In this document: in pieces, positions 9,001-12,000 of the stretch
Layout: every line of letters starts with the position of its first letter
Position numbering within the stretch: the stretch's first letter is position 1
Assembly (NCBI RefSeq): GCF_013122565.1
Contig: NZ_CP053258.1
Source of the DNA: Escherichia coli
GTDB taxonomy: Bacteria > Pseudomonadota > Gammaproteobacteria > Enterobacterales > Enterobacteriaceae
Length of the DNA stretch: 64,000 bases
Reading direction: 5' to 3' (one strand)
Made by a program: the position numbers

Positions 9001-12000
9001 ATTACGCACCCTGGCAACTTACTTAGCCAGTTGGACGCGTGATTACGAAACGGTTTATCGCTACGGGGGCGAAGAATTTATCATTATTGTCAAAGCGGCT
9101 AATGATGAAGAAGCATGTCGTGCAGGTGTCAGAATTTGCCAGTTAGTCGATAACCATGCCATCACACATTCTGAAGGGCATATCAACATTACCGTGACAG
9201 CAGGTGTGAGTCGCGCATTTCCTGAAGAGCCTCTGGATGTGGTCATTGGAAGAGCGGACCGGGCAATGTATGAGGGTAAGCAAACCGGAAGAAATCGCTG
9301 CATGTTTATTGACGAACAAAATGTGATTAACCGAGTTTAAGCTCCGTTTAACATTCATTGAGAAAACTGATGCTACTGTGTCAACGATCCGTTATCAGTG
9401 CAGGAAAATGCCTGTTAGCGTAAAAGCAAAACACAAATCTATCCATGCAAGCATTCACCGCCGGTTTACTGGCGGTTTTTTTTCGCCGTCATAAAAATCA
9501 GGCCCCTTGTACACAACTGTAACAAGGGGCCGGTTAGGTGAGGGATTATCTCCGTTCATTAGTCATCCCATTTGTGGCTGAAATACGCGGCCAGAAAACC
9601 AGAAAATAAAATTATTCCCAGTACGGCCATAAAAACATTCATATTACCCAGCATTATTTGCCTCCGTTTATGGTGTGGTGTGTTTCCTCGCTTACCTTAA
9701 TTTTCATCTCAATGAGAAAGATATTAGCAGAGGTAACCTAAACGAAGGCTGAATTAAATTTTTATTGTGTTCGACTTAAATCAACAAAGCGCGGGCTGCC
9801 CCCACGGTCTTGCACGAATCCCTTTTAACATCAGCACCCACGCAGCAATAATCACCAACGCTAAGATGATAAACAGCGAGGAAGGCGGCAGGTTGGTTAG
9901 CACTAGGCCACTCACTAATGGGTTAATTGCGGCACCAAGCCAGCCTAAAGACTGGGCGGAAAAATAGCTGGCTTTCATTCCTGGCGGCGCAATATGGTCA
10001 ATCAACATATACTCGCCCGGCGCATAAATGATTTCACCGACAGTAAATACCGCAGCTGACATACCCCACAATAGCAGGCTGTTGCCGGAAAAAATAAAAC
10101 CGACCAGTCCGATGACGAAACAGAGGGTGCCTGCTGTCATCAGCGCGCGGATGTTAGCCGGGTTAAGGCGGCGGCCCACGGAATATTGCAATGTAACCAC
10201 CATGGCAGCATTCACCGGAAGAACAACCGCGACCACCTTTTCGGCAAAATCCCCATCAGCAATCACCATCACATATTGTGAAATGCATGAAGCAAATGCG
10301 CCGCTAACAAAAGAAGCCAGAAAACCAGAGCAGGTAAACCACAACAGTGCTTTATCTTGTAATAAAACTTTCGGCGACCAGACACTGCCTGTTTCCGTGG
10401 CGATGATTTTCTCGCTGCGCTTTACCCATATTTGAATGAAAAGCATGGGGAACGCGGAACAGATAGCTGCCAGCCAGAAGGGCAGATTGATGCTCTGCAT
10501 CACCAACAGCGTGCCGAGCGGCGGACCGATGGTCCAGCCAATGTTTAGCATGGTGTAGTTAATTGAGAAGATTTTCGTTTTGCTGGTGGACGAAAGATTG
10601 TCGGCAAACCAGGCTTTCAACACGGTAGCAAAAACGGAATAGGCGCAGTTAATGAGGGCAAAAAAGAGCACCACCAGCGTCACGTTATTCACTAAAGGAA
10701 TGGCAATAAAACCGCTGGCGAAGGCGGTAATTGCCAGTAACATATAGCGTTTCTTGTCGAACTTATCCGCCAGGATACCAAAACCGAGGCTAAAAACGAC
10801 GCCAATAGTGAGCGCAATTGTCATCGCATAACCGATTAGATCGACACTCAGGCTGTACTGGCGACTCAAGTAAATGGTCATAAATGGCAGCGTAGCGCCG
10901 CGTCCGATGGTTAATAACAACGACGAGGCAAGAAGGGCGCTGGTAGAGCGTCGTAGGGATAAGTTCATTTGTCTGTCCGGCAGTGCGTTTCGTTATGTTT
11001 TGTTTTAGAGATGTAAAGAAATAGCATGGCAAAAATCCGAAGTATAGCGACTTATTTGCGCATTAATGCCGTCGTAATCGGCGACTAACGAATCAACTGT
11101 TAAAGAAAAGTAAATTCAGCTAAGTTGATTGCTTACAAAAGATGAAATTCAGAGGCGGTAGAATGTCGCGAAAAGATGGGGTGTTGGCGCTACTGGTAGT
11201 GGTCGTATGGGGGCTAAATTTTGTGGTCATCAAAGTGGGGCTTCATAACATGCCACCGCTGATGCTGGCCGGTTTGCGCTTTATGCTGGTCGCTTTTCCG
11301 GCCATCTTTTTTGTCGCACGACCGAAAGTACCACTGAATTTGCTGCTGGGGTATGGATTAACCATCAGCTTTGCGCAGTTTGCCTTTCTGTTCTGCGCCA
11401 TTAACTTTGGTATGCCTGCTGGACTGGCTTCGCTGGTGTTACAGGCACAGGCGTTTTTTACTATCGTGCTTGGCGCGTTTACTTTCGGTGAGCGACTGCA
11501 TGGCAAACAATTGGCGGGGATCGCCTTAGCGATTTTTGGCGTACTGGTGTTAATCGAAGATAGTCTGAACGGTCAGCATGTGGCGATGCTCGGCTTTATG
11601 TTGACCCTGGCGGCAGCATTTAGTTGGGCGTGCGGCAACATCTTCAATAAAAAGATCATGTCGCACTCAACGCGTCCGGCGGTGATGTCGCTGGTAATCT
11701 GGAGCGCATTAATCCCAATCATTCCCTTCTTTGTTGCTTCGCTGATTCTCGATGGTTCCGCAACCATGATTCACAGTCTGGTTACTATCGATATGACCAC
11801 CATCTTGTCTCTGATGTATCTGGCGTTTGTGGCGACAATTGTTGGTTATGGGATCTGGGGAACACTACTTGGACGCTATGAAACCTGGCGGGTTGCACCG
11901 TTATCGTTACTGGTGCCCGTAGTAGGACTGGCAAGTGCGGCACTATTGTTGGATGAACGCTTAACGGGTCTGCAATTTTTCGGTGCGGTGCTCATTATGA

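What the first reader, a model, noticed from the sequence alone, without database searches (positions are those of the whole stretch)
9341..9780. PhoPQ-associated small-gene cluster: unannotated 31-aa MgtS ORF and candidate MgrR sRNA with convergent terminators
The 96-nt mgtS ORF is below the ORF-track cutoff but translates exactly to a single-TM small protein with a strong RBS. Between dgcZ and mgtS sit two back-to-back intrinsic terminators (one per strand), and the + strand one is positioned to end a ~100-nt sRNA, where MgrR is expected. I could not find a canonical direct-repeat PhoP box by eye (only GTTTA half-sites at about 9353 and 9666), so promoter assignment is open.
Basis: partly seen in the sequence, partly recalled or inferred. 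Interest (0 to 1): 0.35.

Follow-up and report, generated by a model that had tools for sequence, protein, structure and literature searches.

The report
Known E. coli mgrR–mgtS–mgtT locus

Summary
The window is E. coli chromosome. Region 9341-9780 is the dgcZ–ydeE intergenic region, which holds the known PhoQ/PhoP-regulated genes mgrR, mgtS and mgtT.

**Confirmed**
- mgtS is at 9559-9654 (−). It encodes 31 aa identical to K-12 MgtS, preceded by GGAGG and a 6-nt spacer.
- MgrR is at 9386-9483 (+), 98 nt, 97/98 identical to annotated K-12 mgrR. The Rfam RF01407 match scores 281.9 bits.
- Two adjacent terminators are present, one per strand.

**Corrections**
1. PhoP boxes do exist.
   - PmgrR has cGTTTA-N5-cATTGA at 9345-9361. 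This lies 12 nt upstream of an extended −10, TGcTACTGT. A third phased half-site at 9335-9339 sits in the dgcZ stop, giving an exact GTTTA-N6-GTTTA.
   - PmgtS has AATTCA-N5-CGTTTA at 9755→9739 (−), 12 nt upstream of TGcTAATAT.
   - Both boxes are conserved across about 30 enterobacterial loci.
2. It starts in the mgtS tandem stop TAATGA, reads through the mgtS terminator, and overlaps the MgrR 3′ end by 29 bp.

Already known; low interest.

The parts
8450..9340 (+). dgcZ (diguanylate cyclase) CDS. Its last codons, GTT TAA (9335-9340), supply the upstream PhoP half-site of PmgrR.
   Evidence: ORF (the GTG at 8444 is an upstream alternative start). Mapped from the K-12 and strain 2013C-3264 annotation.
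9335..9339 (+). Extra upstream PhoP half-site GTTTA. With 9346-9350 it forms an exact GTTTA-N6-GTTTA, placed 23 nt upstream of the −10. The exact form is seen only in Escherichia.
   Evidence: 3 exact matches in the window against 0.16 expected. Alignment shows only weak conservation ('ta.tt') outside Escherichia.
9345..9361 (+). Conserved PhoP box of the mgrR promoter, CGTTTA-ACATT-CATTGA. Direct orientation, 12 nt upstream of the −10 hexamer.
   Evidence: 31-sequence alignment of orthologous promoters. GTTTA and ATTG are at least 90% conserved (raw view). The spacing matches PhoP promoter architecture I (PMC3335776).
9371..9379 (+). Extended −10 of PmgrR, TGcTACTGT.
   Evidence: TG-n-TA-nnn-T is conserved across genera. 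It lies 6 nt upstream of the annotated MgrR 5' end.
9386..9483 (+). MgrR sRNA, 98 nt. Features: 5' stem-loop 9390-9420; A-rich/ARN region about 9421-9439; seed 9440-9453; terminator hairpin 9457-9476; U8 tail 9476-9483.
   Evidence: K-12 ncRNA mgrR b4698 maps here, with one difference (C9389 versus T). Rfam RF01407 scores 281.9 bits over 9352-9565 (+). The fold has z = −2.9. The structure and the U55-A68 pairing region agree with PMC6239178.
9491..9531 (-). mgtS intrinsic terminator: hairpin 9531→9501 plus U-tract UGAUUUUUAU at 9500→9491. It lies inside the mgtT ORF.
   Evidence: Fold. Conserved with covariation and followed by T-runs in 22 sequences.
9455..9559 (-). mgtT, 34 aa (MNGDNPSPNRPLVTVVYKGPDFYDGEKKPPVNRR). 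Its ATG shares one base with the mgtS stop (TAATG). It overlaps the MgrR 3' end antisense over 9455-9483.
   Evidence: ORF. Annotated in RefSeq. Pfam PF23498 scores 96.3 bits. Expression and the PhoQP-dependent operon are reported in bioRxiv 10.1101/511675 and PMC11429745.
9559..9654 (-). mgtS, 31-aa single-pass membrane protein.
   Evidence: NCBIfam NF033842 80.6 bits and Pfam PF22865 88.2 bits. The 19-aa hydrophobic core has a mean Kyte-Doolittle hydropathy (KD) of 2.34. Variable sites at codon positions 1/2/3 are 12/6/28 across 25 sequences.
9661..9665 (-). Shine-Dalgarno GGAGG of mgtS, 6 nt before the ATG.
   Evidence: Sequence. GGAG is conserved.
9682..9700 (-). Conserved motif in the mgtS 5' UTR, TTAAGGTAAGCGAGGAAAC. 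Role unknown.
   Evidence: AgGTAAg.GAGG is conserved across genera.
9721..9729 (-). Extended −10 of PmgtS, TGCTAATAT. The inferred TSS is about 9712-9714.
   Evidence: Conserved G.TA.taT. A 58-nt mgtS 5' UTR is stated in bioRxiv 10.1101/2021.06.30.450655. The TSS is inferred, not measured here.
9739..9755 (-). PhoP box of the mgtS promoter, AATTCA-GCCTT-CGTTTA. Direct orientation, 12 nt upstream of the −10 hexamer.
   Evidence: 27-sequence alignment with conserved TTcA...tTtGTTTA. Architecture I spacing (PMC3335776).
9790..9806 (-). Terminator-like hairpin at the 3' end of ydeE (tail CTTTGTTGAT). It sits immediately upstream of PmgtS and forms the boundary of the cluster.
   Evidence: ydeE ORF is 9781-10968.

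Best explanation
This is the E. coli mgrR / mgtS-mgtT locus: two convergent transcription units activated by PhoP, lying between dgcZ and ydeE.

**Shown in the literature, not here.** Under low Mg2+, PhoQ phosphorylates PhoP, which activates both promoters.

**Inferred from sequence and conservation here.** PhoP~P binds a direct-repeat box that replaces the −35 element, 12 nt upstream of an extended −10, at each promoter.
- PmgrR: box 9345-9361, with an extra phased half-site at 9335-9339.
- PmgtS: box 9755→9739.

**The + strand unit** yields the 98-nt Hfq-dependent sRNA MgrR (9386-9483). Its single-stranded seed (9440-9453) pairs across the start codon of eptB, among other targets, and represses them. 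It ends at a canonical hairpin plus U8 terminator that also serves as an Hfq-binding site.

**The − strand unit** yields an mRNA with a leader of about 58 nt and a strong SD. It encodes MgtS, a 31-aa inner-membrane protein. According to the literature, MgtS protects the MgtA Mg2+ importer from FtsH and acts on PitA.

Most − strand transcripts should stop at the conserved hairpin plus U-tract (9531→9491), 7 nt from the MgrR 3' end. Transcripts that read through allow translation of the overlapping 34-aa mgtT. Those transcripts are antisense to the MgrR terminator.
For: - **Locus identity.** 5416 of 5426 complete E. coli genomes carry this DNA. RefSeq annotation places dgcZ, mgtT, mgtS and ydeE under the match, and K-12 additionally annotates the ncRNA mgrR. 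Base-by-base alignment maps these to 9386-9483 (MgrR), 9455-9559 (mgtT) and 9559-9654 (mgtS), with one substitution relative to K-12.
- **Family models.** Rfam RF01407 scores 281.9 bits against a gathering score of 55. NF033842, PF22865 and PF23498 are all far above their cutoffs.
- **MgrR structure.** The predicted fold matches the probed structure and pairing region in PMC6239178. The seed pairs with the K-12 eptB start-codon region.
- **Promoters.** Both PhoP boxes and both extended −10 elements are conserved in 27-31 orthologous promoters from roughly ten genera. They sit at the architecture-I spacing of 12 nt (PMC3335776).
- **mgtS terminator.** The hairpin is conserved with compensatory changes and is followed by T-runs.
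- **mgtS coding signal.** Strong third-position variation indicates a protein under purifying selection.
- **Literature.** The genes are convergent and PhoQP-dependent. mgtS-mgtT is a PhoQP-dependent operon. MgtT protein has been detected. mgrR and yneM (mgtS) are directly PhoP-activated (PMC3536696).
Against: Nothing contradicts the identification.

The following caveats apply:
- No expression, PhoP-binding or transcript-end data can be obtained from sequence alone.
- The primary paper on the mgrR promoter (Moon & Gottesman 2009) was not available. The box and −10 assignments therefore rest on conservation and spacing, not on a footprint.
- The E. coli mgtS U-tract (UGAUUUUUAU) is weaker than the T7-T9 runs that directly follow the hairpin in other genera.
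- The eptB duplex statistic is modest: 33 of 1000 shuffles reached the observed energy.
Confidence: 0.97

Rival explanations
1. The − strand hairpin (9531→9501) is not primarily a terminator but an element within a longer mgtS-mgtT mRNA. Under this view most transcripts continue through it so that MgtT is made, and the mRNA 3' end is set elsewhere. That end could come from RNase III cleavage of the duplex formed with convergent MgrR transcription.
For: - The annotated mgtT ORF spans the hairpin and stops at 9455-9457, inside the complement of the MgrR terminator.
- MgtT protein has been detected and is induced by low Mg2+.
- An RNase III-dependent site was reported at K-12 1622816. This corresponds to window 9484, one base beyond the MgrR 3' end, and RNase III-dependent antisense transcripts are cited there (PMC5371410).
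- The E. coli U-tract is interrupted.
Against: - The hairpin with an adjoining T-run is conserved in all genera examined, and most have uninterrupted T7-T9 runs.
- The mgtT frame is not conserved. ORF length ranges from 8 to more than 60 aa, and there is no codon-position bias (11/12/12 variable sites).
- MgtT is reported at lower levels than MgtS.
- The conserved function is therefore termination or stabilisation of the mgtS mRNA, and read-through is the minor path.
Confidence: 0.15
2. The functional PhoP site of PmgrR in E. coli is the exact direct repeat GTTTA-N6-GTTTA (9335-9350), 23 nt upstream of the −10. That would make it an architecture-III, α-CTD-dependent promoter, rather than one using the proximal GTTTA/ATTGA box.
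For: - It is the only perfect consensus repeat at the locus.
- A spacing of 21-23 nt is a functional PhoP box position in rstA and ompX (PMC3335776).
Against: - The distal half-site is exact only in E. coli and E. whittamii. It is poorly conserved elsewhere.
- The proximal pair GTTTA...ATTG is at least 90% conserved in 31 promoters, at the 12-nt architecture-I position.
- The three half-sites are helically phased, so both readings may contribute in E. coli.
Confidence: 0.2
3. The sRNA is the ~214-nt species implied by the Rfam STnc560 model boundaries (9352-9565), not a 98-nt RNA.
For: The Rfam hit spans model positions 1-214 and includes both hairpins.
Against: - Model position 1 (9352) lies upstream of the −10 element and inside the PhoP box.
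- The first hairpin is followed by U8, a canonical terminator.
- On the + strand the second hairpin is followed by GGUUAGGUGAGG, with no U-tract.
- K-12 curation and biochemical work use a 98-nt RNA.
- The model boundaries therefore appear to include flanking conserved DNA.
Confidence: 0.03

Closest known systems
E. coli K-12 mgrR (b4698), listed in Rfam as RF01407 STnc560 (the equivalence of the Salmonella name rests on my own knowledge plus the coordinate overlap found here)
   Same: Same locus, strand and length (98 nt). 97/98 identical. Identical seed, ARN region, terminator and U8 tail. PhoP box at the −35 position.
   Different: One substitution, C9389 versus T in K-12, at MgrR nt 4. This nucleotide is unpaired in the predicted fold. 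The variant is shared with other E. coli strains such as 2013C-3264.
E. coli K-12 mgtS/yneM (b4599; NCBIfam NF033842, Pfam PF22865)
   Same: Identical 31-aa protein. Same SD, same leader, and same convergent position relative to mgrR.
   Different: No difference over 9300-9701, which covers the coding region and about 47 nt of the leader. One A/G difference from K-12 lies just upstream of the PhoP box.
E. coli K-12 mgtT (b4775; Pfam PF23498)
   Same: Identical 34-aa ORF. Same 1-nt overlap with the mgtS stop (TAATG) and the same 29-bp antisense overlap with mgrR.
   Different: No difference from K-12. Across genera the ORF is not preserved: 8 aa in Pluralibacter and Enterobacter, 14 aa in several Citrobacter, and about 60 aa in Salmonella arizonae.
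PhoP promoter architecture I (mgtA, phoP, slyB, yrbL; Zwir et al. 2012, PMC3335776)
   Same: A single direct-orientation box sits 12 nt upstream of the −10 hexamer at both PmgrR and PmgtS.
   Different: Each box has one consensus half-site (GTTTA) and one degenerate half-site (ATTGA or ATTCA), in mirror order at the two promoters. PmgrR in E. coli adds a third phased consensus half-site one helical turn upstream.

Membership tests
MgrR sRNA (Rfam RF01407 / K-12 b4698) | Covariance-model score at or above the gathering threshold, on the expected strand | tested here: met
   281.9 bits against a gathering score of 55, E = 1.8e-64, + strand, 9352-9565.
MgrR sRNA (Rfam RF01407 / K-12 b4698) | Orthologous position and near-identity to the curated K-12 gene | tested here: met
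   K-12 mgrR at 1622817-1622914 (−) maps to window 9386-9483 (+), between dgcZ and mgtS. 97/98 identical.
MgrR sRNA (Rfam RF01407 / K-12 b4698) | Rho-independent terminator with a poly-U tail (Hfq-binding module), plus an internal ARN-rich region | tested here: met
   8-bp stem at 9457-9476 plus U8. The A-rich 9421-9439 stretch and single-stranded centre are as described in PMC6239178.
MgrR sRNA (Rfam RF01407 / K-12 b4698) | Seed complementary to the eptB translation-initiation region | tested here: met
   MgrR nt 55-68 (9440-9453) pairs with K-12 eptB from −8 to about +5, including a 10-bp run across the AUG. ΔG is −20.5 against shuffles of −14.8 ± 2.7, with 33 of 1000 at least as good. The eptB gene of this strain is not in the window.
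MgrR sRNA (Rfam RF01407 / K-12 b4698) | PhoP-dependent transcription and Hfq dependence | not testable with these tools
   Only the sequence prerequisite, a conserved PhoP box, was verified. Expression evidence comes from the literature.
MgtS small protein (NCBIfam NF033842 equivalog; Pfam PF22865) | HMM score above the curated cutoff over the full length | tested here: met
   NF033842 scores 80.6 bits (cutoff 35). PF22865 scores 88.2 bits (cutoff 27). Both align residues 1-31 to profile positions 1-31.
MgtS small protein (NCBIfam NF033842 equivalog; Pfam PF22865) | Single transmembrane helix and evidence of protein-level selection | tested here: met
   The 19-aa window VFMAVLGIILFSGFLAAYF has a mean Kyte-Doolittle hydropathy (KD) of 2.34. 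Variable sites at codon positions 1/2/3 are 12/6/28, with heterozygosity 3.0/1.1/11.0, in 25 distinct sequences.
MgtS small protein (NCBIfam NF033842 equivalog; Pfam PF22865) | Stabilises MgtA and is induced by low Mg2+ through PhoQP | not testable with these tools
   Literature only. The conserved PhoP box at 9755→9739 is consistent with it.
MgtT small protein (Pfam PF23498) | HMM match and a start overlapping the mgtS stop | tested here: met
   96.3 bits (cutoff 27). The TAATG junction is at 9559.
MgtT small protein (Pfam PF23498) | Conservation as a protein beyond Escherichia | tested here: not met
   ORF length in the same frame ranges from 8 to more than 60 aa across genera. There is no codon periodicity in the first 14 codons (11/12/12 variable sites). 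The ATG is explained by the conserved tandem stops T(A/G)A-TGA of mgtS. This does not affect membership of the E. coli ORF itself.
Intrinsic (Rho-independent) terminator, mgtS | GC-rich hairpin immediately followed by a U-tract, conserved in orthologues | tested here: met
   Hairpin 9531→9501 plus UGAUUUUUAU. 10 consensus pairs, of which 4 show compensatory changes and the 9 outer pairs are never broken. T-rich tails follow in all 22 sequences. Termination efficiency was not measurable.
PhoP-activated promoter, architecture I | Direct-orientation PhoP box (T/G)GTTTA-N5-(T/G)GTTTA about 12 nt upstream of the −10 hexamer | tested here: met
   PmgrR has CGTTTA-N5-CATTGA, then 12 nt, then TACTGT. 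PmgtS has AATTCA-N5-CGTTTA, then 12 nt, then TAATAT. In each box one half-site is degenerate, but both half-sites are conserved across genera. The definition comes from PMC3335776 and PMC7667037. PhoP binding itself was not tested.

The most novel reading that the evidence does not exclude
The two PhoP-activated convergent units may be coupled in cis. Read-through of the somewhat weakened E. coli mgtS terminator is required to translate mgtT. That read-through produces RNA antisense to the MgrR terminator and 3' end, over at least 9455-9483. RNase III cleavage of the resulting duplex, or transcriptional collision, could then tune MgrR against MgtS/MgtT output. In this reading mgtT is an Escherichia-specific by-product, or sensor, of that read-through, and not a conserved effector protein.
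Probability: 0.15. Interest if true: 0.4.

Novelty: already known. Interest (0 to 1): 0.07.

Why it matters
It matters mainly as quality control.

The biology is textbook for E. coli. MgrR has been known since 2009, MgtS function since 2017 and MgtT since 2019.

This check adds four small things:
- Exact coordinates for every element.
- A comparative demonstration that both promoters carry architecture-I PhoP boxes, each with one degenerate half-site.
- The finding that the mgtS terminator is deeply conserved.
- The finding that the mgtT reading frame is not conserved outside Escherichia. This bears on whether MgtT is a functional protein.

Tried and rejected
- **Full-length duplex prediction.** RNAduplex of full-length MgrR against the eptB 5' region gave a meaningless long looped duplex no better than shuffles. 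I repeated it with only the single-stranded core.
- **Terminator scan.** The consensus scan did not report the − strand hairpin, apparently because of its loop and bulge limits. I used folding and comparative analysis instead.
- **Papers not held.** Moon & Gottesman 2009 (PMC2841474), Wang 2017 (PMC5465934), Yin 2019 (PMC6351178) and Moon 2013 (PMC3765083) were unavailable. I could not compare my PhoP-box and TSS calls with the published footprint or 5' RACE figures.
- **STnc560–MgrR link.** A text search for papers linking 'STnc560' and 'MgrR' found none. The equivalence rests on the coordinate overlap with annotated K-12 mgrR and on my own knowledge.
I considered whether the GTTTA at 9666 could be a reverse-orientation PhoP half-site. 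I rejected this: it has no partner at ±11 bp, it lies downstream of the inferred TSS, and it is adjacent to the SD.
- **Rfam boundaries as RNA ends.** I considered whether the 214-nt Rfam model boundaries define the RNA. I rejected this (see rival explanations).
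Full report
**What is at the coordinates**

Region 9341-9780 is the intergenic space between a + strand ORF ending at 9340 and a − strand ORF ending at 9781. A 701-bp query around it matches 5416 of 5426 complete E. coli genomes at 95-99.6% identity. RefSeq annotates dgcZ, mgtT, mgtS and ydeE under the match.

In K-12 MG1655 the same stretch carries the following genes:

| Gene | K-12 coordinates |
|---|---|
| mgtS (b4599) | 1622646-1622741 |
| mgtT (b4775) | 1622741-1622845 |
| mgrR ncRNA (b4698) | 1622817-1622914, opposite strand |
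| dgcZ | — |

A three-way alignment transfers these to the window:

| Feature | Window coordinates | Strand |
|---|---|---|
| MgrR | 9386-9483 | + |
| mgtT | 9455-9559 | − |
| mgtS | 9559-9654 | − |

Over 9300-9701 the window differs from K-12 at one base, C9389 versus T, which is MgrR nucleotide 4. Over 9300-9800 it is identical to strain 2013C-3264.

The 31-aa ORF is present and reads MLGNMNVFMAVLGIILFSGFLAAYFSHKWDD. GGAGG lies six bases before its ATG.

Many ORFs of this size occur by chance: 56 ORFs of at least 20 aa overlap a 3.5-kb stretch. Identity therefore has to come from other evidence.
- It scores 80.6 bits against the NCBIfam equivalog NF033842 (cutoff 35), and 88.2 bits against Pfam PF22865.
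- It has a 19-residue hydrophobic core.
- Across 25 distinct orthologous sequences from about ten genera, variable sites fall 12/6/28 at codon positions 1/2/3. This is the signature of a protein under purifying selection.

An Rfam scan of the whole window gives a single hit, RF01407 (STnc560). It lies on the + strand at 9352-9565 and scores 281.9 bits against a gathering score of 55. The curated 98-nt K-12 MgrR sits inside it.

The predicted MgrR fold has four parts:
- a 5' stem-loop at 9390-9420;
- an unstructured A-rich centre;
- a terminator hairpin at 9457-9476;
- a U8 tail.

This agrees with the enzymatically probed structure and the U55-A68 pairing region reported in PMC6239178.

**The terminators**

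The + strand terminator is canonical.

The − strand hairpin (9531→9501) is followed by UGAUUUUUAU. The simple scan did not list it. I retrieved 34 loci from a species-representative genome collection using a 20-mer from the MgrR core.
- In every locus with an adjacent mgtS, the same GC-rich hairpin follows the mgtS stop and is followed by a T-run. In most genera this is an uninterrupted T7-T9.
- In a 22-sequence alignment the 10 consensus pairs include four with compensatory double changes. The nine outer pairs are never broken.

So 'two back-to-back terminators, one per strand' is correct. The MgrR 3' end (9483) and the end of the mgtS U-tract (9491) are separated by only 7 nt.

A 34-aa ORF at 9455-9559 (−) starts with the last base of the mgtS stop (TAATG). 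It runs through the mgtS terminator hairpin and stops inside the complement of the MgrR terminator. It overlaps MgrR by 29 bp.

It is annotated in RefSeq and matches Pfam PF23498. The protein was detected by epitope tagging (bioRxiv 10.1101/511675). It is part of a PhoQP-dependent mgtS-mgtT operon, with no deletion or overexpression phenotype reported (PMC11429745).

My comparative data add several observations.
- The ATG is created by conserved tandem stop codons of mgtS, T(A/G)A-TGA.
- The downstream frame is open for only 8 aa in Pluralibacter and Enterobacter, 14 aa in several Citrobacter, about 24 aa in Kosakonia, and about 60 aa in Salmonella arizonae.
- The first 14 codons show no third-position bias: 11/12/12 variable sites.
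- The apparent amino-acid conservation 'NRPLV' coincides with the terminator stem CGGCCCCTTG.

MgtT therefore looks genus-specific. In E. coli its translation requires terminator read-through.

**PhoP boxes**

*PmgrR.* A search for GTTTA-N6-GTTTA finds an exact match at 9335-9350. The window holds three exact matches against 0.16 expected.

Alignment of 31 orthologous mgrR promoters shows that the deeply conserved element is one helical turn downstream. It is cGTTTA-N5-cATTGa (9345-9361), followed after 12 nt by an extended −10, TGnTAnnnT (9371-9379). This lies six bases before the annotated 5' end, G9386.

*PmgtS.* On the − strand, 27 orthologous mgtS promoters conserve aATTCA-N5-(t/c)GTTTA (9755→9739), then 12 nt, then TGcTAATAT (9729→9721). 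This places the start near 9712-9714 and gives a leader of about 58-59 nt. That is consistent with the 58-nt mgtS 5' UTR mentioned in bioRxiv 10.1101/2021.06.30.450655.

*Architecture.* A direct-orientation box 12 nt upstream of the −10 is 'architecture I' of PhoP-activated promoters such as mgtA, phoP and slyB. Boxes at 21-23 nt are also functional, as architecture III (PMC3335776). The E. coli-specific upstream half-site may therefore add to activation.

It is a chance pentamer.

**Mechanism**

The following steps are shown in the literature, not here:
- Low Mg2+ activates PhoQ/PhoP, which directly activates mgrR and yneM/mgtS (PMC3536696).
- MgrR is an Hfq-dependent class II sRNA repressing eptB and ygdQ (PMC6239178).
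- MgtS protects MgtA from FtsH-dependent degradation (PMC12648545).

The following are inferred here from sequence and conservation:
- the exact PhoP boxes;
- the extended −10 elements;
- the mgtS TSS;
- the terminator assignment.

As a plausibility check, the MgrR seed (9440-9453) pairs with the K-12 eptB start-codon region. The duplex includes a 10-bp run, with ΔG of −20.5 kcal/mol, and 33 of 1000 shuffles did as well.

**Residual open point**

An RNase III-dependent site was reported at K-12 1622816. This equals window 9484, one base past the MgrR 3' end, and RNase III-dependent antisense transcripts are cited at the yneM-mgrR junction (PMC5371410).

Together with the mgtT read-through requirement, this leaves room for cis-antisense coupling between the two units. 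It is untested, and I rate it unlikely to be a major effect.

**Verdict**

Everything is already known and annotated: mgtS and mgtT in RefSeq, mgrR in K-12 and Rfam. Interest is low.

The corrections are:
- precise coordinates for each element;
- the existence and position of both PhoP boxes;
- the overlooked mgtT ORF.

Noticed in passing
window 9682-9700 (− strand): The mgtS 5' UTR carries a purine-rich motif, TTAAGGTAAGCGAGGAAAC. Its core AgGTAAg.GAGG is conserved across about ten enterobacterial genera while the surrounding leader diverges. No conserved start codon follows it. Its role is unknown.
   Followed up: no
window 59036-59051 (+) and 60040-60055 (−): Two further exact GTTTA-N6-GTTTA repeats flank a fimA-like major fimbrial subunit ORF (59278-59889), upstream of a chaperone gene (60241-60960). 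The window holds three exact matches against 0.16 expected from shuffles. They could be PhoP boxes or a by-product of AT-rich fimbrial intergenic DNA.
   Followed up: partly
window 58700-60400: This fimbrial segment is at most 96.5% identical to any complete E. coli genome in the collection. Only 10 records are at or above 99%. By contrast the mgrR region reaches 99.6%. It is a locally variable region.
   Followed up: no
window 9790-9806 (−): A terminator-like hairpin, CGTGGGGGCAGCCCGCG plus CTTTGTTGAT, overlaps the last codons of ydeE. It lies immediately upstream of the mgtS promoter. It may insulate PmgtS from ydeE read-through.
   Followed up: no
L011 1310-1531 and 2972-3136 (Enterobacteriaceae bacterium RIT691): Two RF01407 (MgrR) hits above the gathering score lie 1.6 kb apart on the same strand. 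One is next to mgtS but has no recognisable PhoP box at the aligned position. The other has the box but no adjacent mgtS.
   Followed up: partly
L006 (Caldithrix sp. MAG contig) and L031 (Chryseobacterium sp. 18061 contig): Both contigs carry enterobacterial mgrR-mgtS DNA. L006 is identical to E. coli K-12 in every segment compared: mgtS, mgtT, the mgtS promoter and the short available stretch of MgrR 5' sequence. This points to contamination or mis-binning in those assemblies.
   Followed up: no
L018 (Citrobacter amalonaticus), L033 (Huaxiibacter), L034 (Lelliottia): MgrR is present in all three; RF01407 hits were checked for L018 and L034. No MgtS-like ORF was found within about 420 nt downstream. 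The mgrR-mgtS linkage is therefore not universal.
   Followed up: no
window 8444-8452: The mechanical ORF for dgcZ starts at a GTG at 8444 (298 aa). The annotated DgcZ is 296 aa and starts at the ATG at 8450.
   Followed up: no
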